DNA of 10,837 nt, from the UHGV virus genome UHGV-0335500, one strand, 5' to 3'. Made by a program: the position numbers and the translations under genes. Under the pieces are notes generated by a model. That model was not told where the DNA came from. It made no database searches and saw only the letters and a program-made list of their open reading frames with translations. Positions 1-10,780 of the stretch are shown here, piece after piece. Every line of letters starts with the position of its first letter. Within the stretch, counting starts at the first letter, position 1. The stretch comes from a virus.

Positions 1-58
1 CTGGCCTGTGAACCGGGTGGGTGCTCTGCTCCCGTGGCGGGTTACTCTGCCTGCCTGA

Positions 59-214
59 CCAGCTTCACTTCGTCAATACGGTTCTCACTGCACGCTTACG
101 GATAAATTTCCTTCAGCACAAATCATCATTGCTGCGGATAACGACCACAGCGAAGGAAGACAAAACACGGGGAGAATAGCAGCAGAAAAGGCAGCTTTAT
201 CTGTTTCTGGATGG
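59..214 (+). other. Upstream in-frame continuation of the primase reading frame (Toprim-like acidic motif), cut by a TGA at 56-58
   Basis: Manual translation of the frame of the 215 ORF upstream gives PASLRQYGSHCTLTDKFPSAQIIIAADNDHSEGRQNTGRIAAEKAALSVSGW, contiguous with the ORF. IIIAADNDHSEG resembles the Toprim DxD metal-binding motif. No ATG/GTG/TTG exists in this frame between the TGA at 56-58 and the GTG at 215. Confidence 0.5.
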
Positions 215-2096: not shown

Positions 2097-2215
2097 AGAA
2101 AAGGTGTTGGTTCAGTTGGTTCAGTTGGTTCAATTTGTAAAGAGTATTGTTTTATAAGGATTTTATTCTTTTTATTGAACCAACACTGAACCAACAACAC
2201 GGCATTTTGAACCAA
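2097..2215. repeat. Iteron cluster A: 3 tight direct TTGGTTCA(G/A) repeats, AT-rich spacer, 3 inverted TGAACCAA repeats; ori/crr-like
   Basis: Direct 9-mers at 2107-2115, 2116-2124 and 2125-2133. AT-rich spacer 2134-2174. Inverted copies (C/T)TGAACCAA at 2175-2183, 2186-2194 and 2207-2215. Positions 2101-2144 are the exact reverse complement of 8601-8644. Lies 17 bp after the primase stop. Confidence 0.8.
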
Positions 2216-2315
2216 CACAACGTGACTGAATTGATGAGCACAACATCTGGCTGGCATTAGAGAGTGTTTTACGAAATCTGAACACCACATCACTGGTTTC
2301 AGTGGGAGATTGATG

Positions 2316-2771
2316 ATGAAGATAATCGCAAAGGCTTTTCATCATGTATTTGGCAAAGTATCCGATTTGCCATCTGTAATACCGATGAACAACAGAAGGG
2401 AGATGCTGCTTGATATGGTTGTGTTCCCATACATAGACCTTTCTGAACCAATGAAAGCAACTCTTTTCAGAAAGTATCTTGGCGACTTTAAACGCCGTTT
2501 TACAGGCGTTAACGGGATGGTTGATATCTGCTCCATCAGAGATATTGTTGAACTTGCAGGGATTAATTTGTGGGGAGAAGCGGCAGCAGCATACAAATGG
2601 CTTGAACGCCTGCACTGTGTTTCATTCAGTGACATGAGTGCTGATATCGCTTTAATGGTTCCTCACAAAATCAATATGGTCTTTGCTGGTGGCAATTACA
2701 CTTATCCATGGAACCAGGAACAAAGAGAGAACAGGAAAGCTCACGCCATGAAGAGTAATGCGACTCCATAA
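2316..2771 (+). CDS. Hypothetical protein (151 aa), stand-alone transcription unit
   Basis: ORF track 2310..2771. Shine-Dalgarno GGGAGA at 2304-2309 is best spaced for the ATG at 2316. An intrinsic terminator follows. No motif recognised. Confidence 0.6.
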   Translation: MKIIAKAFHHVFGKVSDLPSVIPMNNRREMLLDMVVFPYIDLSEPMKATLFRKYLGDFKRRFTGVNGMVDICSIRDIVELAGINLWGEAAAAYKWLERLHCVSFSDMSADIALMVPHKINMVFAGGNYTYPWNQEQRENRKAHAMKSNATP

Positions 2772-2823: not shown

Positions 2824-2856
2824 ATGCCACCAGCTACTGAACGGTGGCATTTTTTT
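2824..2856 (+). terminator. Rho-independent terminator after the 151-aa gene
   Basis: Stem ATGCCACC (2824-2831) pairs with GGTGGCAT (2843-2850), 11-nt loop, then a T run at 2851-2856. Just upstream, TGTCA-N5-TGACA (2801-2815) preceded by an A run could terminate on the opposite strand. Confidence 0.6.
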
Positions 2857-2887
2857 GTGCTATTTGTTTCATATTTTGCAATCACAA

Positions 2888-2918
2888 TGATGAATGTTGC
2901 GTTTTATGAAACTATAAT
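2888..2918 (+). promoter_or_regulatory. Putative sigma70 promoter for the 57-aa/489-aa/701-aa operon
   Basis: Perfect -10 TATAAT at 2913-2918. The -35 is weak (TGATGA/ATGAAT near 2888-2895). Located between the upstream terminator and the strong Shine-Dalgarno at 2941-2947. Confidence 0.35.
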
Positions 2919-2951
2919 GACTGTTGTTTTATACAGTTCTAAGGGGGCGTT

Positions 2952-3125
2952 ATGGCTATTTCAGTAAAGCCAGTATTGATAAGTGAGAAGCAAATGGAAG
3001 CGATAAAGAAAATTCAGGAGGAGCAGCGTAAAAAATCAGAGGTAGGAGTTGCGCCAACGATCCACGAAATTGCTCGGGGATTAATGGATAAGGCGCTGGC
3101 TTACACTTTAACTGGACGTGGGTAA
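2952..3125 (+). CDS. Small (57 aa) Lys/Glu-rich protein, possible ribbon-helix-helix DNA-binding protein; first gene of operon
   Basis: Not in the ORF track (under 60 aa). ATG 2952 is preceded by AAGGGGG at 2941-2947. Translation is MAISVKPVLISEKQMEAIKKIQEEQRKKSEVGVAPTIHEIARGLMDKALAYTLTGRG. The strand-helix-loop-helix pattern is by eye only. Stop TAA at 3123-3125 abuts the next start. Confidence 0.5.
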   Translation: MAISVKPVLISEKQMEAIKKIQEEQRKKSEVGVAPTIHEIARGLMDKALAYTLTGRG

Positions 3126-3129
3126 ATCA

Positions 3130-4596
3130 ATGGCTACGTGGCAACAGGGTATTAATTCTGGTGGTTTTCTGGCTGGCATCGGTACGCAAAATGAGAATGC
3201 GCCAAAGGCAAGCGACATTAACGCAACGCTTGGTCTGATCCGCGAAAACAATGAACTGGCTCGCTCAGGTGCAAATAACGTTGCTCTGACAGGTCTTCGT
3301 GGTCTGGCTGGCGTTGCTGATATTTATAAGCAGCAGCAACAGCAGGAGCGTAAAGCGGCATTCCAGAAAGGTTATGCAGATGCTTATGCGTCCGGTGACA
3401 GGGAGCAGATGCGTAATCTTATTACAGCATTCCCAGAAGAGTTTGAGGAAGTCCGTAAAGGGATGAGTTATGTCGATGATGCTCAAAGGGATGATTATGG
3501 CAATCTGGCGCTCAAAGCACAGGTAGCCTCATCGCTTGGTCAGGGCGCATTTGGCAGGTTCATGATGGATAATGAGCAGGAGATGCGTCGTTTAGGTATC
3601 CCTCCAGAAACTATTGCTGAAATGCAGGTTAATGACCCGCAGGGCTTCCAGCATTTCGCAGGTAATCTGGCGCTGTTTTCTCTCGGTCATGAGAAGTATT
3701 TCGATATCAAAGATCAAATGGAAGGTCGGGATATTGAGCGTGGCAAGTTGGCAGAGACAATCCGCAGCAATCAGGCTGGCGAAGCACTTCAGGCGAGAGG
3801 GCAGGATATTAGCCGAGCAAATGCGTTAACGTCAGCATATGCACCAACAGCAGCAATGCAGAATTACAATCAGTACGCTCAAATGTTAAAGGCGGATCCA
3901 GAGGGGGCGGCGGCATTTGCGGCAGCGGCTGGAATTAATACAAACGCCAAAAAATTAATGAGTGTTAGAGAAAACGATGATGGCACTGTCACAAAATACT
4001 ACACAGACGGAAGTGAAGAGCAGGGAAAACTAAACCAGCCAATATCTGGAGATGGGTTTCGTCCAATAGCTTTGCCAACAGCCCAAAAGATCATGGAAAA
4101 GTCGCCAGAAGGGGCTAAAAAAGCTGCTGGATTTGCATACAGGGTTAGGGATGCTCTTGATTCAATAGATACACTGAAAGACCAGCTTAGCCCACAGCGA
4201 GTGGCGATCATTAATAATGCTTTGGGTAATGGGACGCTGGCTAACTTAACGCTCAGCCCAACAGAACAGCAATACGTTGTTAATGCTAATGACGCAATAA
4301 TGGCAATACTCCGTCAGGAAACAGGGGCAGCCATCGTACCTGCTGAAATGTCAAAATATTATCAAATGTATTTCCCTCAGCCTGGCGACTCCACAAAAAC
4401 CATTGATACCAAGCGCCGGAAGATGGAAAACCAGTTCAATTCGCTGAAAGCTGCTTCTGGTCGAGCTTATGATGCTTTGCGGGTTATTTCAGCAGTTGAC
4501 AGAGGAACTTCTTCTTCGTCGCAGACATTGCCGCAATCTGAGCAGGTATCACAGCCAGCAGCCAGCAGTAACTTTTCTTCACTATGGGGTGATTAA
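3130..4596 (+). CDS. Hypothetical Ala/Gln-rich protein (about 489 aa), no recognisable catalytic motif
   Basis: Long ORF (track 3118..4596 from GTG; ATG 3130 preferred). Contains a poly-Gln run (KQQQQQERK) and is predicted to be largely helical and low-complexity. The stop overlaps the next start as TAATG at 4594-4598. Confidence 0.85.
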   Translation: MATWQQGINSGGFLAGIGTQNENAPKASDINATLGLIRENNELARSGANNVALTGLRGLAGVADIYKQQQQQERKAAFQKGYADAYASGDREQMRNLITAFPEEFEEVRKGMSYVDDAQRDDYGNLALKAQVASSLGQGAFGRFMMDNEQEMRRLGIPPETIAEMQVNDPQGFQHFAGNLALFSLGHEKYFDIKDQMEGRDIERGKLAETIRSNQAGEALQARGQDISRANALTSAYAPTAAMQNYNQYAQMLKADPEGAAAFAAAAGINTNAKKLMSVRENDDGTVTKYYTDGSEEQGKLNQPISGDGFRPIALPTAQKIMEKSPEGAKKAAGFAYRVRDALDSIDTLKDQLSPQRVAIINNALGNGTLANLTLSPTEQQYVVNANDAIMAILRQETGAAIVPAEMSKYYQMYFPQPGDSTKTIDTKRRKMENQFNSLKAASGRAYDALRVISAVDRGTSSSSQTLPQSEQVSQPAASSNFSSLWGD

Positions 4597-6701
4597 TGGC
4601 TAAAGCATGGAAAGATGTTATCGCCTCTCCACAGTATCAGGCGTTAGCACCAGAACAAAAAGCGCAGGCTCAGGAGCAATACTTCAATGAAGTCGTGGCC
4701 CCGCAAGCCGGAGAAAGTGTAGAGCAGGCTAAGCAGGCTTTTTATGCTGCCTATCCACTACCATCAACGAATGAAATAGACCGATCCCAATCAGCAACTC
4801 AAAATATTCAACATACATCATCTGATAATTCTCTTGCGTCAGGGTATGCAAAGTTAGCTACTCAGCAAAGAGAGGGGCTTGAGCGTTCAGCAGAACAGGG
4901 AGCCAGTCTTGGGGCTGCGATGCGCGATGCTATAACAGGCGAAAGCCGAATGACTCCAGAGATGGAGAGACTGCAAAATGTCGACCTTGCCCCAGAGTTA
5001 ACCTCACTCAGCATGGATGCTCTAAAAGCTCGATGGTCTCAACTTTTCGGCTCTGACGCATCTCAGGAAAAGATTCTTCAGAGCATGGGAGCGAAATTAA
5101 GGCAGGATGAGAAGGGTAACACTATCGTTTCCCTGCCATCCGGTGATTATGCTCTGAACAAGCCGGGTTTATCGCCGCAAGACGTGGCATCGTTTCTGGC
5201 TAATGCGCTGGCGTTTACACCAGCGGGCAGGGCTGGAACGGTGCTTGGTGCCATAGGAAAATCAGCAGCTACAGATTTAGCACTACAGGGAGCCACTAGC
5301 CTTGCTGGTGGAGAAGATATTGATCCGTTACAAACGGTAATTTCTGCTGGCATTGGTGGTATTGGTAAGGGGCTGGAAAATACAGCGAGTGCGGTTTCGA
5401 GGGCTGTTCGTGGTGATATGTCGCCTGAAGCAAAGGCTGCTGTCGACTTTGCATCGGAAAGAAATCTGCCGTTAATGACCAGTGACGTACTGAAAGATAA
5501 AAACACTGTGCAGAGTCTGGCCCAGAAAACAGGCGAAAAAATTCCTTTTTTTGGAACGGGTACGAACAGGCTGAATCAACAACAGGCTCGGGAAAATCTG
5601 GTCAGAACATATAACGATGGTCTGGGAGGCATTTCAGATAAACAGCTTTATGAGTCTGCTACTAAAGGGCAGCAAAAATTCATTGAGGCCGCAGGTAAGC
5701 GATATAACCGCATAATTGACGCTATGGGGGATACCCCTGTCGACCTATCAAACACGGTAAAAGCTATCGACAATCAGATTGCCGTGTTAAGCCGCCCGGG
5801 CAAATCTCAGGATAGAGCCGCGGTAAAAGTCTTGCAGCAATTTAAAGACGATATCACCAGCGGGCCAAATGACCTGCGTCTGGCGAGGGAAAACAGAACC
5901 GATCTTCGAAAGCGATTTATGGCGTCATCTGACACTGTTGATAAAGATACGCTCCAGAAAGCCAGCGATATTATCTACAAGGCATATACGGCGGATATGA
6001 AAAAAGCCGTAGCCAAAAATCTTGGAGCAGACGAAGCCATTAATATGGCAAGGGTTGATCGCTCATGGTCTAAATTCAATGACATGATGGGAAGAACGCG
6101 CGTTCAAAAGGCAATAGCCAGCGGCAAGGCCACGCCTGAGGATGTAACAAAACTCGTGTTTAGTCAAAGCCCATCAGAACGTTCTCAGCTTTACAGGCTT
6201 CTGGATGACAATGGTAGGCAAAACGCACGAGCAGCCATAGTTCAGAATGCTGTAGATAAGGCGACTGATCCGTCTGGAAATATCAGTGTTGAGAAGTTTA
6301 TTAATGCGTTACACCGGAACAGGAAGCAATCAGCAACTTTCTTTAAAGGCGTGCACGGAAAGGAACTGGACGGCATTATTAAATACCTCAACGATACCAG
6401 ACAGGCGGCAAAGGTTGACGGTCAGAAATTAAACAGCCAGAAACTTTATGGCCTGCTGGTTGGTGGAGGCGCTATAAATGCGGCAGTTCTGGCGGGGATG
6501 CTGAAAACGGCTGCGTTTGTTGTTCCTGCTGCTGGTGCTTTAGGCGGAGCAGCGAAGGCATACGAAAGCCCTGTTATACGAAATGCCTTATTACGTCTGG
6601 CAAATACGCCAAAAGGTAGCACAGCATATGACAGAGCGATCAGTACAGTCACACAATCACTGACCACAGCAGCACAAGCATCGCAAAAGGAAGCTCAATA
6701 A
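4596..6701 (+). CDS. Hypothetical large protein (701 aa) with glycine-zipper-like hydrophobic segments; possibly membrane-interacting
   Basis: ORF 4596..6701, translationally coupled to the upstream gene. Gly/Ala-rich hydrophobic stretches: TVLGAIGKSAATDLALQGATSLAGG, VISAGIGGIGKGL and C-terminal LYGLLVGGGAINAAVLAGMLKTAAFVVPAAGALGGAAKAY. No canonical Walker A or nuclease motif seen. Confidence 0.9.
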   Translation: MAKAWKDVIASPQYQALAPEQKAQAQEQYFNEVVAPQAGESVEQAKQAFYAAYPLPSTNEIDRSQSATQNIQHTSSDNSLASGYAKLATQQREGLERSAEQGASLGAAMRDAITGESRMTPEMERLQNVDLAPELTSLSMDALKARWSQLFGSDASQEKILQSMGAKLRQDEKGNTIVSLPSGDYALNKPGLSPQDVASFLANALAFTPAGRAGTVLGAIGKSAATDLALQGATSLAGGEDIDPLQTVISAGIGGIGKGLENTASAVSRAVRGDMSPEAKAAVDFASERNLPLMTSDVLKDKNTVQSLAQKTGEKIPFFGTGTNRLNQQQARENLVRTYNDGLGGISDKQLYESATKGQQKFIEAAGKRYNRIIDAMGDTPVDLSNTVKAIDNQIAVLSRPGKSQDRAAVKVLQQFKDDITSGPNDLRLARENRTDLRKRFMASSDTVDKDTLQKASDIIYKAYTADMKKAVAKNLGADEAINMARVDRSWSKFNDMMGRTRVQKAIASGKATPEDVTKLVFSQSPSERSQLYRLLDDNGRQNARAAIVQNAVDKATDPSGNISVEKFINALHRNRKQSATFFKGVHGKELDGIIKYLNDTRQAAKVDGQKLNSQKLYGLLVGGGAINAAVLAGMLKTAAFVVPAAGALGGAAKAYESPVIRNALLRLANTPKGSTAYDRAISTVTQSLTTAAQASQKEAQ

Positions 6702-6760
6702 CAGATGACCATGGATGGTTGGCTATAATAGTAATTAGTTTTTTCAAATAGTTATGAACA

Positions 6761-7159
6761 TTAACACTTGCCTTTAACATTGCCGACAAATGAGCCTGTA
6801 AATGAGCCTATATCAGATCGACTAATTGTTCGTGTATGGATCACTTTTCCGTCATTTGAGATTGCCCATGTGACAAGCGTCAGTTGACCATCTCGATAGC
6901 TTCTTCCCATCATGGCATTCGGAGATAGCGGGTAATAATCAATACCTCCACCTATACCATCTTTTGCCAAGATAAGATCCGCCTTCTCTTTACTTATTAC
7001 CAAATGAAAGGTATCTGGTATAGATGATAACTTATAGTTATACCCATCTGAACTTGAGGCTTCTTGTCCTTTCAGATCACCAATAATCCAGCATTCAGCG
7101 TTCGCTCCAAAAGAAGCAAATAATAAACCGGAGACAACCAATCGCTTCAATTGATTCAC
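6761..7159 (-). CDS. Small secreted (periplasmic) protein, about 132 aa with Sec signal peptide; unknown function
   Basis: Lies inside ORF-track 6761..7417 (minus). Preferred start is GTG at 7159-7157, preceded by a strong Shine-Dalgarno AAGGGAGGG. N-terminus MNQLKRLVVSGLLFASFGANA|ECW is a typical signal peptide with an AXA cleavage site. Mature part is about 111 aa with Cys near both ends. Convergent with the 701-aa gene. Confidence 0.65.
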   Translation of the reverse strand: MNQLKRLVVSGLLFASFGANAECWIIGDLKGQEASSSDGYNYKLSSIPDTFHLVISKEKADLILAKDGIGGGIDYYPLSPNAMMGRSYRDGQLTLVTWAISNDGKVIHTRTISRSDIGSFTGSFVGNVKGKC

Positions 7160-7681: not shown

Positions 7682-7882
7682 TCATTTTGTGACCAATGCG
7701 ATAAGTAGCGGGATAAGAATTGATAAAATCAACAGGACGATGATCCACTTTTGATTCTCGTCCATCTTATCTGCTAGGCGACGCTCCATTCCGTGCATAT
7801 CACCGCGAATGGCAATCATCTCATTGCGAACATCCGAGAAGTGGTTGGCTTGATGTTCAATGTGTGGCGTTCTGCCTTTCAT
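7682..7882 (-). CDS. Small tail-anchored membrane protein (66 aa); possibly XhlA/holin-like
   Basis: ATG at 7882-7880 preceded by Shine-Dalgarno GGTGAGGA. Translation MKGRTPHIEHQANHFSDVRNEMIAIRGDMHGMERRLADKMDENQKWIIVLLILSILIPLLIALVTK has a charged N-terminal part and one C-terminal transmembrane helix. Family assignment is from memory, low confidence. Confidence 0.55.
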   Translation of the reverse strand: MKGRTPHIEHQANHFSDVRNEMIAIRGDMHGMERRLADKMDENQKWIIVLLILSILIPLLIALVTK

Positions 7883-7961: not shown

Positions 7962-8417
7962 TTATACGCTGACCTTACAATCAATCACCGCTTTTAACTT
8001 TTCAGCATTGCTTCCCTGACGCTTCCACGCGCTGTAAATATCTTTATCCCACGCTTTACCAGCTTTTGTTTGATAGCCTGCTTCATTGATCCGTTCAGCT
8101 ATCACACGCCCATTATCAAATCCCTGTTGGATGGTATCGGCAATGATCTTTATAACTGCCGTTTCGTTATATGGTTTTGGTGGGATGTTCGGCTTTCCGG
8201 CAATAAGCGACGCAGCGGCTTTTTCCATGCGCTCCACCAGCCCAAGCATTCGTGAATCAATAGACTTTTCCGGCTGCCCCAGCTTCATGCGAATCGCATC
8301 AACAAGCCAAGAGGTTTTATCTCCTCCAGAAGCGAGAACAGACCGATTAAACTCATCCTGCAATTCAGATGGGATGCGGAACGCGATCAGATTAGATTTG
8401 CTCATTGCAAAGACCAT
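7962..8417 (-). CDS. Ribbon-helix-helix-like DNA-binding protein (147-151 aa)
   Basis: ORF track 7962..8417 (minus); alternative start ATG at 8405-8403 (MSKSNLIAFRIPSELQDEFNRSV...). N-terminus fits a beta-strand plus two helices. Co-directional with and 79 bp upstream of the 66-aa membrane protein gene, so probably one operon. Confidence 0.65.
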   Translation of the reverse strand: MVFAMSKSNLIAFRIPSELQDEFNRSVLASGGDKTSWLVDAIRMKLGQPEKSIDSRMLGLVERMEKAAASLIAGKPNIPPKPYNETAVIKIIADTIQQGFDNGRVIAERINEAGYQTKAGKAWDKDIYSAWKRQGSNAEKLKAVIDCKVSV

Positions 8418-8464: not shown

Positions 8465-8520
8465 ACGCTCAAATATCAGCCAGAAAATAACAGACCAATC
8501 ACAAATCTATCGCTGTGTTG

Positions 8521-8644
8521 TTGGTTCAGAGCTGGGCTGTGTTGGTTCAAAATGAGTTGATGTTGGTTCAATATTTTAGAAAAAACACAATAAAAACAAC
8601 GCTCTTTACAAATTGAACCAACTGAACCAACTGAACCAACACCT
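8521..8644. repeat. Iteron cluster B: inverted copy of cluster A (3 loose TTGGTTCA at 21-bp spacing, AT-rich spacer, 3 tight TGAACCAA); ori/crr-like
   Basis: TTGGTTCA(G/A) at 8521-8529, 8542-8550 and 8563-8571. AT-rich 8572-8612. (T/C)TGAACCAA at 8613-8621, 8622-8630 and 8631-8639. Positions 8601-8644 are the reverse complement of 2101-2144. Confidence 0.8.
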
Positions 8645-8676: not shown

Positions 8677-8964
8677 ATGATAAAGGACAGGAAAGCTGAA
8701 GAGCTGGAGTCAAAAGGGCTATACCGGAGAGCTGCCGCACGATGGGCAGAAGTCATGATGCTGGCAGATGGCGATAAAGAACGTGAACATGCAGTAAACA
8801 GACGCTCTGAATGTATCCGTAAGGCGGCACGCCCACCAGCAACTACAGACAGATTCGGAGATTTAAGACAGGCAGTTAAGCGGACTCATTCGGCTCTTGG
8901 TATGGATGAGGAAGCGAGAGGGTACTTCAGGCGTTATCGCGATAAAGATTGCCAGAGACAGTAA
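8677..8964 (+). CDS. PerC-family-like small transcriptional regulator (95 aa)
   Basis: ORF with Shine-Dalgarno GAGG 6 nt before the ATG. AEELESKGLYRRAAARWAEVMM resembles the conserved N-terminal signature of PerC/Pch-type regulators as I recall it. Confidence 0.6.
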   Translation: MIKDRKAEELESKGLYRRAAARWAEVMMLADGDKEREHAVNRRSECIRKAARPPATTDRFGDLRQAVKRTHSALGMDEEARGYFRRYRDKDCQRQ

Positions 8965-9070
8965 TGCTCTCTCTGTTTTGGCAAATTACCCCTCACTTTG
9001 AAGGGATCGGAGCTATAAAAATGGTGTTATCCGGAATCCTCAAATTGAGGATTGTGGAAGAATCAATGGG

Positions 9071-9084
9071 TTAGGTCATCGTGC
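9071..9084. other. Perfect 14-bp palindrome GTGCAAATTTGCAC in the junction region
   Basis: Read directly. Sits among other hairpin-capable repeats, for example AATCCTCA-N3-TGAGGATT around 9036-9054 (approximate) and GCCAACG-N8-CGTTGGC around 9090-9115. Confidence 0.4.
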
Positions 9085-9239
9085 AAATTTGCACTCTGCC
9101 AGCCAACGCAATTTCTCGTTGGCGGAAATATCAGGTATTTACTGAACGAACGGTCTACCAGTCTGTTCAGTTACCAGTTGCACATGGCTGTTTCATGTGA
9201 GAACGGAGGTTTTTTTCGGACATCGCTATTGGGTACAGC

Positions 9240-9263
9240 AATTTCACGAGCAATACGCGCGCG
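9240..9263. repeat. Dispersed 24-bp repeat, copy R5 (AATTTCACGAGCAATACGCGCGCG)
   Basis: Same motif as 7344-7367 and 7631-7656, about 1.6 kb away in the junction region. Confidence 0.55.
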
Positions 9264-9348
9264 CAGGACAACAAGCCTGAACATGGTTACACACCTCGAT
9301 CCTGAGGGATGTAGACAATGGCTTCTGACCAAAGCACCCGAAAAAACC

Positions 9349-9370
9349 GTGTACATAAGGGTGTACATAA
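9349..9370. repeat. Tandem direct repeat GTGTACATAA-GG-GTGTACATAA; possible recombinase arm-type or regulator binding sites
   Basis: Two identical 10-mers at 9349-9358 and 9361-9370. Confidence 0.45.
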
Positions 9371-9480
9371 TCAAAAATCGCATTAGCAAGAAACCAGCCA
9401 CAATGCGGCATTGAAGCCAACACTCTACAAACAGATTCAGAGTAACTCGTAACACTAATTCTTACTTTTCAGCCTTCACA

Positions 9481-9512
9481 AATGCCGCCCACTCAAACAG
9501 AGCGGCATTTTT
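9481..9512 (+). terminator. Rho-independent terminator-like hairpin upstream of dinD
   Basis: AATGCCGC (9481-9488) pairs with GCGGCATT (9502-9509), 13-nt loop, followed by a T run. Confidence 0.5.
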
Positions 9513-9604
9513 CTTCCCCGCAACTTCAATTCTGTTTTGCGTGCCTGCTCCAGATTTTGCGATGTTTTTTTGCCCAGCACACTGAGAACGTGAGATACTC
9601 ACAA

Positions 9605-9620
9605 CTGTATATAAATACAG
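9605..9620. promoter_or_regulatory. LexA (SOS) box in the dinD promoter
   Basis: CTGTATATAAATACAG matches the CTGT-N8-ACAG LexA consensus and sits 45 bp upstream of the dinD ATG. Confidence 0.8.
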
Positions 9621-9665
9621 TTACAGATTTACTTTCTTTGCAATCGATATCACATGGAGTGGGCA

Positions 9666-10490
9666 ATGAACGAACATCATCAACCTTTTGAAGAAATACG
9701 GCATTATGGCACTGAAGGGCAAGAATTTTGGTCAGCTAGAGAATTGGCACCGTTACTGGATTATCGGGACTGGCGCAATTTTCAAAAGGTACTGGCCCGC
9801 GCGACTCAAGCGTGCGAAGCCAGCAATCAAGCTGCATCTGACCATTTCGTTGAAACCACCAAAATGGTTGTATTAGGTTCAGGGGCTCAACGAGAACTTG
9901 AAGATGTTCATCTCTCCCGCTATGCCTGTTACCTGGTAGTACAAAACGGCGACCCTGCGAAACCGGTTATTGCGGCAGGGCAAACTTATTTTGCTATCCA
10001 GACCCGACGGCAGGAGCTGGCTGACGATGAAGCTTTCAGGCAACTTCGTGAAGACGAAAAGCGTCTTTTTCTGAGAAATGAATTGAAAGAACATAACAAA
10101 CAATTGGTTGAGGCAGCGCAGCAAGCTGGGGTAGCGACAGCTATCGATTTCGCCATATTTCAGAATCATGGTTACCGGGGGCTGTATGGTGGATTAGATC
10201 AGAAAGCCATCCATCAGCGGAAGGGGCTGAAAAAGAGTCAGAAGATCCTGGATCATATGGGTTCAACAGAACTGGCGGCTAATCTCTTTCGAGCTACCCA
10301 AACAGAAGAAAAACTCAAGCGGGATGGCGTGAATTCAAAACAGCAAGCAAACACCACACACTTTGACGTGGGTCGCAAGGTGAGGCAAACCATTCAGGAA
10401 CTTGGCGGAACCATGCCTGAGGAGTTGCCGACCTCGCAGGTCAGCATCAAGCAGTTGGAAAACAGTGTAAAAATTACAGAGAAGAAATAG
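9666..10490 (+). CDS. dinD: DNA damage-inducible protein D (DinD), 274 aa
   Basis: ORF track 9654..10490. ATG 9666 (MNEHHQPFEEIRHYGTEGQEFW...) is preferred because GGAGTGGG precedes it. Identity rests on recalled E. coli DinD and the LexA box upstream. Confidence 0.8.
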   Translation: MNEHHQPFEEIRHYGTEGQEFWSARELAPLLDYRDWRNFQKVLARATQACEASNQAASDHFVETTKMVVLGSGAQRELEDVHLSRYACYLVVQNGDPAKPVIAAGQTYFAIQTRRQELADDEAFRQLREDEKRLFLRNELKEHNKQLVEAAQQAGVATAIDFAIFQNHGYRGLYGGLDQKAIHQRKGLKKSQKILDHMGSTELAANLFRATQTEEKLKRDGVNSKQQANTTHFDVGRKVRQTIQELGGTMPEELPTSQVSIKQLENSVKITEKK

Positions 10491-10780
10491 CAGAAACTAA
10501 AAACTCTTTTTGTTGATTGAGATACCCGATGCGTAAGCCAAAGTCCAGGTGCGGTGAACACAATGGCTAACATTGCACCTTTCTTTTCCACCCCTCAGTT
10601 TTAACCTACTTTTTCTTATGTATTTTCTCAGACAAGAAGTCAGAAGAATGCATCTACGCTACAGAAAACAACGATTTCACATAACTAAAAATTATCAATT
10701 TCCTCTCACCTTAAAAAATCTCAATCGTGACAATGCGTACAAATCGCTACCCTGCCAGACAGATTTTTAGGGAGAGAACC

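What the first reader, a model, noticed from the sequence alone, without database searches (positions are those of the whole stretch)
2952..6701. Coupled three-gene operon of uncharacterised proteins in the island cargo: candidate novel accessory system
A 57-aa ribbon-helix-helix-like protein and two large proteins (489 and 701 aa) are tightly coupled: TAA 3123-3125 sits just before ATG 3130, and TAATG overlaps at 4594-4598. They follow a TATAAT -10 and a strong Shine-Dalgarno. I recognise no ATPase, nuclease, methyltransferase or other catalytic motif in either large protein. The module sits where P4-like satellites are known to carry variable defence or interference cargo. The Ala/Gln-rich, helical composition could equally fit a structural or capsid-redirecting role against a helper phage.
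Basis: partly seen in the sequence, partly recalled or inferred. Interest (0 to 1): 0.8.

Follow-up and report, generated by a model that had tools for sequence, protein, structure and literature searches.

The report
Satellite-borne phage DNA-ejection protein operon
The three genes are not an unknown system: they are a small leader gene plus a matched pair of phage P22-type "ejection" proteins (the proteins a short-tailed phage shoots into a cell to build its DNA-entry channel), carried by a phage-parasitising island of E. coli, probably so that the island can fit its helper phage's particles with an entry channel of its own.

Summary
The operon is real: 57-aa ORF 2952-3125, 488-aa ORF 3130-4596 and 701-aa ORF 4596-6701, tightly coupled. 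The claim that the large proteins are unrecognisable is wrong. ORF2 is a P22 gp20 homologue (Pfam PF16928, E 1.6e-83) and ORF3 a gp16 homologue (PHROG 770, E 2.6e-155); RefSeq already names them ejection/injection proteins.

The host element is not a classical P4. It belongs to the EcCIMP1 family of PICI satellites, whose type member is mobilised by the P22-like phage Kapi1 (primase 99.7% identical, leader ORF 87%).

Phage-derived DNA spans exactly 3120-6718, genes 20 and 16 only. Published P22 hybrids show these two genes must be exchanged together. All three genes are under purifying selection (dN/dS 0.11-0.32).

New here: the leader ORF is absent from 50,697 phage records. Its promoter carries an SOS-box core (2921-2936). 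In other Enterobacterales the same slot carries other genome-delivery proteins (T7-gp14-type internal virion proteins, tape-measure proteins); one sampled cargo class was not a virion protein.

Best reading, inferred and untested: an SOS-derepressed module that loads satellite-encoded conduit proteins into helper capsids. This copy's primase gene is interrupted by IS66.

The parts
2826..2856 (+). Hairpin (GCCACC...GGTGGC) followed by a run of seven T: terminator-like element that separates the cassette from the upstream primase/ori region
   Evidence: Terminator scan (stem 2833-2848 plus T-run) and the sequence. Conserved in EcCIMP1 (alignment A1). A hairpin plus T-run is visible at the equivalent place in several other genera in alignment A4.
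2913..2918 (+). -10 hexamer TATAAT of the cassette promoter; the -35 is poor (ATGAAT 2890-2895)
   Evidence: Sequence. TATAAT is conserved upstream of the leader ORF in 9 of the 10 lineages aligned. Not called by the consensus promoter scan.
2919..2938 (.). Putative LexA (SOS) box GACTGTTGTTTTATACAGTT, core CTGT-N8-ACAG at 2921-2936, between the -10 and the Shine-Dalgarno
   Evidence: the core occurs only twice in the window (0.12 expected by chance). The other copy is the dinD SOS box at 9605-9620, which serves as an internal positive control; the box is present at the same position in all 10 E. coli loci, in Serratia (17/20 to consensus), in Erwinia, and as a CCAG variant in L025/26. It is degenerate or one base short in the Klebsiella/Raoultella-type lineages; it is the only such core inside each island. 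LexA binding was not tested.
2941..2947 (+). Shine-Dalgarno AAGGGGG for the leader ORF
2952..3125 (+). Leader ORF (57 aa), a satellite-specific small protein of unknown function; possibly a two-helix DNA-binding regulator
   Evidence: 87% identical to the 53-aa first gene of the EcCIMP1 module. 45 homologues, all Enterobacterales, all 'hypothetical', none with a genuine Pfam domain (one partial Salmonella entry, P0024, carries a precomputed PF00871). No tblastn match in 50,697 phage records at E<=1. dN/dS 0.13. AF2 model: extended residues 1-11, helices 12-28 and 37-53. Its last ~7 codons differ between islands because the cargo junction lies at ~3100.
3130..4596 (+). P22 gp20-type ejection protein (488 aa), the periplasmic conduit protein
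   Evidence: PF16928 Inj_translocase E 1.6e-83, residues 12-228. PHROG 917 full length E 1e-142. 55% identical to P22 gp20 over residues 1-238. No hydrophobic segment.
3120..3784 (+). Mosaic block 1: gp20 N-terminal ~218 residues, the same type as in genuine P22-like prophages
   Evidence: 94.6% nucleotide identity to the P22-like prophage of strain AH19K002. 92-100% amino-acid identity per 25-residue window up to residue ~200. In P22 the N-terminal 314 residues of gp20 carry the procapsid-binding determinant (PMC8402733).
3785..4823 (+). Mosaic block 2: gp20 C-terminal ~270 residues plus the first ~76 residues of gp16, exchanged as one piece
   Evidence: Unlike the prophage allele (8-32% identity) but 96-100% identical per 25-residue window to the satellite of strain 98207. 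Closest phage versions: about 52% (APSE, residues 50-455) and HK620 gp16 residues 1-54 at 74%.
4596..6701 (+). P22 gp16-type ejection protein (701 aa), the membrane-associated part of the conduit
   Evidence: PHROG 770 'DNA transfer protein' E 2.6e-155 over residues 19-700. 67% identical to phage N7 ORF13 and 29.7% to P22 gp16 (E 3e-42). 90% identical over residues 69-701 to the AH19K002 prophage protein.
6444..6545 (+). Hydrophobic Gly/Ala-rich segment of the gp16-like protein (residues 617-650), a candidate membrane-insertion segment
   Evidence: Kyte-Doolittle 19-residue mean up to 1.71; the only such segment in either large protein.

Best explanation
Window 2826-6701 is the genome-delivery ('ejectosome') module of an EcCIMP1-family phage satellite (PICI) integrated between yicC and dinD. 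It encodes a co-adapted pair of P22-type ejection proteins, a gp20-like periplasmic tube protein and a gp16-like membrane protein. A satellite-specific 57-aa ORF leads the operon, which is driven by a promoter whose -10 is followed directly by a LexA-box core. Proposed mechanism: (1) In the resting cell LexA keeps the operon off (inferred). (2) DNA damage that induces a resident P22-like helper prophage also derepresses the operon (inferred). (3) The satellite gp20 and gp16 are recruited into helper procapsids through the conserved gp20 N-terminal region, alongside or in place of the helper's own copies; gp7 and gp14 come from the helper, because this cassette lacks them (inferred from P22 genetics). 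(4) On the next cell they are ejected and form the periplasmic and inner-membrane part of the DNA conduit (the family function, shown for P22). The likely benefit is that particles carrying the island have a conduit type of the satellite's choosing. That would make entry independent of the helper's alleles, and could allow entry into cells that block the helper's conduit, such as SieA-type exclusion in P22-like lysogens. Shown here: gene identity, cassette structure, purifying selection, mosaic exchange with prophages, and the slot's preference for genome-delivery proteins. Inferred: SOS control, incorporation into virions, and the benefit.
For: Identity: gp20 and gp16 homology; RefSeq names. 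Element: (backbone as EcCIMP1; primase 99.7% and leader ORF 87% identical). EcCIMP1 is excised and transduced only with the P22-like phage Kapi1 (PMC11773190).

Unit of exchange: phage-like DNA runs exactly 3120-6718. [quoted passage not shown] The window's gp20 N-terminal ~200 residues are 92-100% identical to a natural P22-like prophage allele.

Maintained function: dN/dS 0.11-0.32. The cassette is present at >=80% coverage in 300 of 5426 complete E. coli genomes and the leader in 499. The same leader plus gp20 plus gp16 sits behind a different replicase in strain STW0522-31.

Dedicated slot: after leader-ORF homologues lie gp20+gp16 (E. coli, Serratia), gp14+gp7+gp20+gp16 (EcCIMP1 type), T7_gp14/SLT-type internal virion proteins (Leclercia, L023), tape-measure proteins (Erwinia, L021, Klebsiella, L030), and a TMP/'tail injection transglycosylase'-like protein (Raoultella). 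All are proteins that leave the virion to cross the envelope. The leader is absent from phages.

Regulation: (SOS-box core at the promoter, with dinD as internal control).

Logic (inference): E-proteins enter procapsids before DNA is packaged, so a pure poison would also cripple the satellite's own particles.
Against: No experiment shows that satellite E-proteins enter virions. EcCIMP1 is transduced only at low frequency and does not change Kapi1 titre (PMC11773190). Heterotypic gp16/gp20 pairs do not work together, so mixed loading could be harmful rather than useful. P22 and HS1 SieA excluded hybrids carrying the E-protein sets of three of four foreign phages (Sf6, L, CUS-3); only the HK620 set gave partial escape, so allele diversity alone is not an easy route past exclusion. 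One slot variant in E. coli (L027-29) carries a 223-aa HEXXH protein and no virion protein. The LexA box matches the consensus at only 14/20 here and is degenerate in several lineages. Pick et al. found alpA induction to depend on the helper, not on mitomycin C alone. In this particular copy the primase gene is cut by IS66, so this island may no longer be mobile. I could not check whether strains carrying the island also carry a P22-like prophage.
Confidence: 0.5

Rival explanations
1. Interference or exclusion role. The satellite's gp20/gp16 act as dominant-negative subunits. They co-assemble with, or titrate, the E-proteins of the helper or of a superinfecting P22-like phage. The result is non-infectious helper progeny or a blocked incoming conduit, and so protection of the host population.
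For: Heterotypic gp16/gp20 combinations give assembled but non-infectious P22 particles (PMC10461980), so mixed loading is a ready-made poison. EcCIMP1 adds to superinfection immunity against Kapi1 in lysogens (PMC11773190). EcCIMP1's gp20-like protein is at most ~28% identical to any phage gp20 in the collection, i.e. strongly heterotypic. Satellites commonly interfere with helper assembly (Tai and Tab systems: PMC11364771; PMC10884400, listed).
Against: EcCIMP1 does not lower the Kapi1 titre after induction. E-proteins are loaded before DNA is packaged, so a poison would hit satellite particles equally (inference). Neither protein has a signal peptide, so cytoplasmic copies could hardly reach an incoming periplasmic conduit; the single hydrophobic segment in gp16 is C-terminal. 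A predicted LexA-repressed promoter argues against constitutive exclusion. The four-gene forms carry a full gp14-gp7-gp20-gp16 set, which looks like a working kit rather than a decoy. No PADLOC hit.
Confidence: 0.2
2. Packaging or head-morphogenesis role, as tentatively suggested for the EcCIMP1 homologues. The proteins would help redirect helper capsid assembly or DNA packaging towards the island.
For: They occupy the post-primase position where other Gram-negative PICIs carry packaging genes, and Pick et al. propose this (PMC11773190). One PHROG hit for ORF3 (phrog_29117) is labelled 'head morphogenesis'. [quoted passage not shown]
Against: In P22, gp16 and gp20 are dispensable for assembly of DNA-filled particles and act at injection. 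No terminase, capsid or scaffold homology was found in this cassette. The alternative cargos in the same slot are tape-measure and internal virion proteins, not packaging proteins.
Confidence: 0.08
3. Functionless passenger. A fragment of a P22-like helper captured by recombination and merely carried along.
For: The alleles are mosaics shared with P22-like prophages. One copy is interrupted by IS66 (strain 214-4). This window's island has an IS66-disrupted primase gene.
Against: dN/dS is 0.11-0.32 with intact reading frames at dS up to 0.39. The captured DNA is trimmed to exactly two genes and placed behind a conserved satellite promoter and leader ORF. The cassette is in 300 of 5426 genomes. 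Unrelated genome-delivery proteins sit independently in the same slot in other genera.
Confidence: 0.07
4. One reading: a novel accessory or anti-phage defence system made of uncharacterised proteins in a P4-like cargo hotspot.
For: The slot is variable between related islands. One variant carries a non-virion HEXXH protein that could be a defence gene.
Against: Both large proteins belong to known virion protein families. No PADLOC match. No catalytic domain in this window's proteins. The element lacks annotated P4 sid/psu/delta genes.
Confidence: 0.03

Closest known systems
EcCIMP1, a PICI of E. coli MP1 mobilised by the P22-like phage Kapi1 (Pick, Stadel & Raivio, ISME J 2025, PMC11773190)
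   Same: Same backbone and gene order (integrase, AlpA-like HTH, AntA/B antirepressor, DUF4222, Ash, TOPRIM/DUF927 primase, PerC). Primase C-terminal 621 residues 99.7% identical. Same iteron array, terminator, promoter and SOS-box core. Leader ORF 87% identical. P22-type 'DNA transfer' genes follow it.
   Different: Different integration site (yicC/dinD rather than tRNA-Thr at proA/yagU). Two cargo genes rather than four (no DUF2824/gp14 and no gp7). The gp20-like proteins are only 26% identical, and the large protein is a different allele (no SLT domain, no BLAST match). The authors mention the genes only as possible packaging or morphogenesis candidates and did not test them.
Ejection proteins gp20 and gp16 of phage P22 and other Lederbergvirus (Sf6, HK620, CUS-3, L, N7)
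   Same: Sequence homology, gene order 20 then 16 with overlapping stop/start, mosaic block structure, and a hydrophobic segment only in gp16.
   Different: Not part of a virion gene cluster: no capsid, portal, tail, gp7 or gp14 genes nearby. Preceded instead by a satellite-specific ORF and a promoter of its own with an SOS-box core. Best sequenced-phage identity is only 57% (gp20 N-terminus) and 67% (gp16).
Satellite piracy through homologues of helper virion proteins (for example the SaPIbov5 Ccm capsid-protein homologue, PMC8569155; capsid-forming PICIs)
   Same: A satellite encodes its own version of a helper structural protein, which enters helper-built particles.
   Different: The known cases act on capsid size or shape, or on packaging specificity. 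Here the proteins belong to the DNA-delivery step in the next cell. Incorporation is inferred, not shown.
Satellite phage P4 and P4-like elements
   Same: Alpha-type primase (DUF927), integrase, a variable cargo region, and two iteron clusters reminiscent of P4 ori and crr (the P4 comparison is from memory).
   Different: No sid, psu, delta or eps genes annotated. The experimentally defined helper of the family is a P22-like podophage, not P2.
Conduit-directed superinfection exclusion (P22 SieA; HK97 gp15 against the tape-measure protein; TP-J34 Ltp)
   Same: The targets of these systems (gp16/gp20 and tape-measure proteins) are the protein classes found in the satellite slot (PMC10461980).
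   Different: Those are membrane proteins that block injection. The window encodes the targets, not the blockers, and any link to evasion is hypothesis.

Membership tests
P22 gp20 family (Pfam PF16928 Inj_translocase) | N-terminal Inj_translocase domain scoring above Pfam's gathering threshold | tested here: met
   280.1 bits against a cut-off of 29.7, covering profile positions 1-217 of 218. PHROG 917 full length, E 1e-142.
P22 gp20 family (Pfam PF16928 Inj_translocase) | Encoded directly upstream of, and coupled to, a gp16-type gene | tested here: met
   TAATG overlap at 4594-4598. Same order in phage N7 and in the AH19K002 prophage.
P22 gp20 family (Pfam PF16928 Inj_translocase) | Lies in a virion assembly cluster downstream of gp14 and gp7 | tested here: not met
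   preceded by the 57-aa satellite ORF. No gp7 or gp14 homologue in the window. Related satellites do carry them.
P22 gp20 family (Pfam PF16928 Inj_translocase) | Packaged in the virion and released before the DNA | not testable with these tools
   Needs particle proteomics.
P22 gp16 family (DNA transfer / injection protein) | Full-length homology to gp16-type proteins of P22-like phages | tested here: met
   PHROG 770, E 2.6e-155, residues 19-700; 67% identity to phage N7 over 90% of the length; P22 gene 16, 29.7% identity, E 3e-42. No Pfam model matched at E<=0.1. PF26808 Phage_P22_gp16 appears only as weak or faint hits on related satellite proteins.
P22 gp16 family (DNA transfer / injection protein) | Membrane association | tested here: inconclusive
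   one hydrophobic Gly/Ala-rich segment, residues 617-650 (KD 1.7). This is compatible with membrane association but is not a test of it.
EcCIMP1-like PICI (Gram-negative phage-inducible chromosomal island) | Integrase, AlpA-type regulator, antirepressor, Ash, DUF927 primase and PerC in the family's order, with no capsid, tail or lysis genes | tested here: met
   (annotation of the 99.6%-identical island in strain ISHS7). (collinear with EcCIMP1; 93-99% nucleotide identity over the regulatory and primase region).
EcCIMP1-like PICI (Gram-negative phage-inducible chromosomal island) | Helper-dependent excision, circularisation and transduction | not testable with these tools
   Shown only for EcCIMP1 with Kapi1. 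In this window the primase gene is interrupted by IS66, so this copy may be defective.
P4-like satellite (sensu Moura de Sousa & Rocha) | Core genes sid, psu, delta, eps and alpA together with the alpha primase | tested here: not met
   the primase and an AlpA-like HTH are present, but no sid, psu or delta is annotated. This rests on RefSeq annotation only; I did not run profile searches on every small island ORF.
Known anti-phage defence systems (PADLOC-DB v2) | Match of any cassette protein to a defence-system model | tested here: not met
   no family for ORF2 or ORF3. ORF1 has only a chance-level hit (E 0.017).
Ribbon-helix-helix DNA-binding proteins (for the 57-aa ORF) | Sequence or structure match to RHH families; N-terminal strand plus two helices forming a dimer | tested here: inconclusive
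   The topology is compatible. There is no Pfam hit, no Foldseek PDB hit and no RHH hit with the family profile. Dimer modelling was not possible.
LexA regulon (SOS-controlled promoter) | CTGT-N8-ACAG operator overlapping the promoter | tested here: met
   core at 2921-2936, directly after the -10. 14/20 to the 20-nt consensus. Conserved in E. coli, Serratia and Erwinia lineages. The dinD box in the same window is the positive control (17/20).
LexA regulon (SOS-controlled promoter) | LexA binding and SOS inducibility | not testable with these tools
   Needs EMSA or reporter assays.

The most novel reading that the evidence does not exclude
A widespread family of Enterobacterales phage satellites keeps a dedicated slot for genome-delivery proteins, often under SOS control. 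The slot has a satellite-only leader gene and a LexA-box promoter, followed by whichever proteins form the helper type's DNA conduit: P22 gp20/gp16, T7-gp14-type internal virion proteins, or tape-measure proteins. The satellites use it to re-equip helper-built virions with a conduit of their own. This would be an 'entry-stage' form of molecular piracy that sets which cells the particles can inject, including cells protected by conduit-directed superinfection exclusion.
Probability: 0.35. Interest if true: 0.8.

Novelty: new member of a known kind. Interest (0 to 1): 0.5.

Why it matters
Described satellite piracy acts on helper induction, capsid size, packaging specificity or tail assembly. 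If satellites also supply the proteins that build the DNA-entry channel, that adds a new control point, namely which recipient cells a transducing particle can enter. This bears on the spread of islands carrying virulence regulators such as PerC. It would also give a natural library of interchangeable gp20/gp16 and tape-measure alleles for studying how these poorly understood conduits work and how exclusion proteins such as SieA recognise them. At the practical level, the result corrects a 'novel system' call: these genes are ordinary, already annotated phage ejection proteins in an unusual host element.

Tried and rejected
- **Solved structures:** phmmer of ORF2 and ORF3 against PDB sequences found nothing, so no structural comparison was possible.
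- **RHH test for ORF1:** Foldseek against PDB returned 0 hits, and the family profile against PDB sequences returned only noise. The RHH label stays unproven.
- **Genome-wide survey:** the genome-contig scan with the leader-ORF alignment returned only 2 loci. I replaced it with exact-sequence look-ups of 9 homologues.
- **gp14 idea:** I considered that the 153-aa ORF 2310-2771 might be a diverged gp14 (DUF2824 proteins are also ~153 aa). It has no BLAST, Pfam or PHROG similarity and is an indel relative to EcCIMP1, so I rejected this.
- **sieA idea:** I considered that the convergent downstream gene might be a sieA homologue. It is phrog_2651, not SieA-like.
- **Terminator after ORF3:** no convincing one was found.
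- **Rfam:** no hits in the window.
- **Literature:** six full-text searches found no paper describing ejection or tape-measure proteins as a satellite module, apart from the brief remark in PMC11773190. The 2026 preprint on the P22 channel could not be opened.
- **Not achieved:** finding out whether strain ISHS7 or other carriers hold a P22-like prophage, and a census of cargo types across all 499 leader-positive genomes. The tools list only one place per record.

Full report
**Observation.** The three ORFs exist as described: 2952-3125 (57 aa), 3130-4596 (488 aa from the ATG; an upstream GTG at 3118 is unlikely, because MATWQQ matches phage gp20 N-termini) and 4596-6701 (701 aa). TAA 3123-3125 lies 4 nt before ATG 3130, and TAA 4594-4596 overlaps ATG 4596-4598. 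TATAAT is at 2913-2918 and the Shine-Dalgarno AAGGGGG at 2941-2947. The consensus scan did not call a sigma-70 promoter, because the -35 is poor. It did find a hairpin plus T-run just upstream (2826-2856) that separates the operon from the primase region.

**What the proteins are.**
- ORF2 matches Pfam PF16928, 'DNA/protein translocase of phage P22 injectosome' (gp20), at 280 bits against a cut-off of 29.7. It also matches PHROG 917 over its full length.
- ORF3 matches PHROG 770 'DNA transfer protein' over residues 19-700 (E 2.6e-155). It is 67% identical to ORF13 of the Lederbergvirus N7 and 29.7% identical to P22 gp16 (E 3e-42).
- The gp20-like N-terminal 238 residues are 55% identical to P22 gp20.
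- There are no PADLOC or NCBIfam hits and no solved relatives in the PDB.
- Only the gp16-like protein has a hydrophobic segment (residues 617-650). That fits the P22 model of a periplasmic gp20 tube and a membrane-bound gp16 (PMC10461980).
- RefSeq already calls the two genes 'phage DNA ejection protein' and 'injection protein'.

**Where it sits.** The window is E. coli chromosome, 99.6% identical to strain ISHS7. It holds the right half of an island inserted between yicC and dinD. The island's gene order is integrase, AlpA-like HTH, AntA/B antirepressor, DUF4222, Ash, TOPRIM/DUF927 primase, the cassette, three minus-strand genes, and PerC. No sid, psu or delta genes are annotated, so it is not a P4-type element in the strict sense. 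This is the backbone of EcCIMP1, a PICI of E. coli MP1 that excises and is transduced only in the presence of the P22-like phage Kapi1 (PMC11773190). I fetched EcCIMP1. The primase C-terminal 621 residues are 99.7% identical and the leader ORF is 87% identical. The ejection-protein genes, however, are quite different alleles: the gp20-like proteins are 26% identical, and the large proteins show no BLAST match. Pick et al. mention their homologues only as 'similar to DNA transfer proteins' and as possible packaging candidates, and did not test them.

**Anatomy of the junctions.** DNA alignment with EcCIMP1 is nearly identical through the primase 3' end, an iteron array, the terminator, the promoter and about 50 codons of the leader ORF. 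Similarity stops at about 3100. Homology to a genuine P22-like prophage (strain AH19K002, at tRNA-Arg/yfdC, with gp14-gp7-gp20-gp16...Arc...tailspike order) runs over 3120-3784 (94.6%) and 4824-6718 (88.9%). The phage-derived DNA is therefore trimmed to exactly genes 20 and 16. Inside it, the block 3785-4823 is of another type: it covers the gp20 C-terminal ~270 residues plus the first ~76 residues of gp16. This block is 96-100% identical (per 25-residue window) to the satellite of strain 98207 and 8-32% identical to the prophage allele.

**Why two genes.** Leavitt et al. built P22 hybrids. Sf6 gene 7 alone substitutes for P22 gene 7. Sf6 gene 16 alone or gene 20 alone gives non-infectious particles, while 16 and 20 together work. 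Foreign E-proteins are incorporated into P22 virions (PMC10461980). [quoted passage not shown] The window's gp20 N-terminal ~200 residues are 92-100% identical to the prophage allele. That is what one would expect if the protein must still dock into a P22-like helper's procapsid.

**Is it maintained?** The leader region occurs in 499 of 5426 complete E. coli genomes, and this gp20/gp16 pair occurs at >=80% coverage in 300. Sampled contexts:
- the two-gene form here and in STW0522-31, where it follows a different replicase (DUF5906);
- a four-gene form (leader, DUF2824/gp14, gp7-like, gp20, gp16) in strains 98207 and MS20658;
- ETEC6, with the same gp20 N-terminus, another C-terminus and another large protein;
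- one copy cut by IS66.

Pairwise Nei-Gojobori dN/dS is 0.13 for the leader, 0.11-0.32 for gp20 and 0.155-0.20 for gp16, at dS up to 0.39. These are selected genes, not debris.

**The slot in other genera.** Leader-ORF homologues are confined to Enterobacterales and are all annotated 'hypothetical'. None has a genuine Pfam domain (one partial Salmonella entry, P0024, carries a precomputed PF00871), and none occurs in 50,697 phage records even at E<=1. On the same satellite backbone, what follows them is:
- Serratia: Inj_translocase plus an SLT/P22_gp16 protein;
- L025/26: DUF2824, P22_gp7, Inj_translocase and SLT/P22_gp16;
- Leclercia and L023/24: a T7_gp14-like 'internal virion protein', an 888-aa SLT protein, and 562-565-aa and 848-849-aa virion proteins related to those of Pseudomonas phage Ab31 and Pelagibacter podophages;
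- Erwinia and L021: a 108-aa protein plus a 1050-1166-aa tape-measure protein;
- Klebsiella and L030: a 671-aa tape-measure/SLT protein plus a Dit-like protein;
- Raoultella: a 605-aa protein with tape-measure and 'tail injection transglycosylase' similarity;
- one E. coli variant (L027-29): a 223-aa HEAGHAV metalloprotease-like protein and no virion protein.

So eight of the nine cargo classes are proteins that leave the virion to build or open the DNA path through the envelope. They are a small subset of phage structural genes, and they are the known targets of injection-blocking exclusion proteins (discussion in PMC10461980).

**Regulation.** Across genera the region upstream of the leader is conserved. 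It contains TTGCAAT/ATTGCA motifs, TATAAT, and directly after it ACTGT-N8-ACAGT. The LexA-box core CTGT-N8-ACAG occurs exactly twice in the window against 0.12 expected by chance: at 2921-2936 and at the dinD promoter (9605-9620), a classical SOS gene that serves as an internal control. The box is present at the same position in all ten E. coli loci, in Serratia (17/20 to consensus, with a different spacer), in Erwinia, and as a CCAG variant in L025/26. It is degenerate or one base short in the Klebsiella/Raoultella-type lineages. It is the only such core within each island. I infer LexA repression and SOS derepression, which would coincide with induction of a helper prophage. This is not shown. 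The leader ORF's role is unknown. Because it is conserved in front of unrelated cargos, it more likely interacts with something belonging to the satellite, such as promoter DNA, than with the cargo proteins (inference). Its model has an extended N-terminus and two helices, but nothing confirms an RHH fold.

**Mechanism and rivals.** My best-supported reading (confidence 0.5) is that the module supplies functional conduit proteins that are loaded into helper procapsids and used when the particle injects.
- The interference reading (0.2) draws on the non-functionality of heterotypic 16/20 pairs and on EcCIMP1's contribution to superinfection immunity. Against it: the Kapi1 titre is unaffected, and because E-proteins are loaded before DNA is packaged, a poison would also hit satellite particles.
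- A packaging role (0.08) is unlikely, because gp16 and gp20 act at injection.
- A functionless passenger (0.07) is contradicted by the selection analysis and by the trimmed, promoter-fitted structure.
- The exclusion-evasion benefit is only one possibility. SieA excluded hybrids carrying the E-protein sets of three of four foreign phages, and only the HK620 set escaped partially.
- EcCIMP1's gp20-like protein is at most about 28% identical to any phage gp20 in the collection, so satellite alleles can be strongly heterotypic.

**Caveat for this copy.** Window 1-99 is the end of an IS66-family element, and every E. coli match to the primase gene starts at position 100. The primase gene of this island is therefore interrupted near codon 297, and this copy may be immobile even though the cassette is intact.

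**Verdict.** The gene families and the satellite family are known, and the genes are already annotated, so this is a new member of a known kind. The comparative picture has some interest. It consists of a satellite-only leader, an SOS-box promoter, and a slot that collects genome-delivery proteins of different phage types. I did not find it described in the searched literature.

Noticed in passing
window 1-99 (and the primase ORF 215-2080): The first ~99 bases are the terminal part of an IS66-family element (92-100% identical to tnpC 3' ends and terminal repeats). All E. coli matches to the primase gene start at window position 100. The satellite's TOPRIM/DUF927 primase gene is therefore interrupted near codon 297 in this copy, which may be replication-defective.
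   Followed up: partly
window 2106-2216 and 8520-8640: The same iteron array occurs twice: GTTGGTTCA x3 followed by the inverted TGAACCAAC x3. One copy is just after the primase stop codon and the other just upstream of PerC, so together they bracket the whole cargo region. This recalls the ori and crr iteron clusters of satellite P4 (comparison from memory). The first array is conserved in EcCIMP1.
   Followed up: partly
window 6761-7159 (-): The convergent gene directly after the gp16-like gene encodes a ~132-aa protein with a signal-peptide-like N-terminus (phrog_2651, E 5e-22). Homologues lie next to the repressor in Sf6 (gene 38), HK446, HK633 and phage 434, and just after gene 16 in Salmonella phages Emek and ST-35. 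These are typical positions for lysogeny-expressed 'moron' genes, so it is a candidate exclusion factor that could underlie satellite-linked superinfection immunity.
   Followed up: partly
window 7682-7882 (-) and 7962-8405 (-): Two more minus-strand cargo genes. One encodes a 66-aa protein with a C-terminal transmembrane segment (phrog_6324; weak holin-family hit). The other encodes a ~148-aa protein whose N-terminus looks like a ribbon-helix-helix motif (phrog_30270, E 4e-4). Functions unknown.
   Followed up: no
window 2310-2771 (+): A 153-aa ORF between the iteron array and the cassette has no Pfam, PHROG, NCBIfam or PADLOC match. It is an insertion/deletion difference from EcCIMP1. It is annotated as a hypothetical protein in strains ISHS7 and ETEC6. 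The region has low G+C (~0.40).
   Followed up: partly
window 8677-8964 (+): A PerC-family regulator (PF06069, E 5.5e-33), 53% identical to the EcCIMP1 PerC-like protein, which Pick et al. found to repress rather than activate LEE1 expression in Citrobacter rodentium.
   Followed up: no
window 9603-9622 and 9654-10490: dinD, the core chromosomal gene at the island's right border, with its SOS box AACTGTATATAAATACAGTT. The protein also matches the PADLOC candidate family PDC-S13 (E 1.4e-124) and the N-terminal part of a 'type I specificity subunit' model.
   Followed up: no
L027-L029 (E. coli, pao locus), 9001-10600: An exception to the slot pattern. A leader-ORF variant (58 aa, different C-terminal tail) is followed by a 223-aa protein with an HEAGHAV zinc-protease motif and two ~115-aa proteins, one of which has a signal peptide. 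There is no virion protein. This could be a defence or toxin cargo.
   Followed up: partly
L008 (E. coli strain 214-4), 10287-14932: In this strain the gp16-like gene of the four-gene cassette is split by IS66-family insertions, showing that individual copies do decay.
   Followed up: no
L023/L024, 16938-17315: The T7-gp14-type cassette in this lineage ends with a Rap1a-family protein (PF18602; phrog_3870). In other contexts that family comprises immunity proteins against peptidoglycan-degrading effectors, so it might protect the producer cell from the SLT-domain cargo protein.
   Followed up: no
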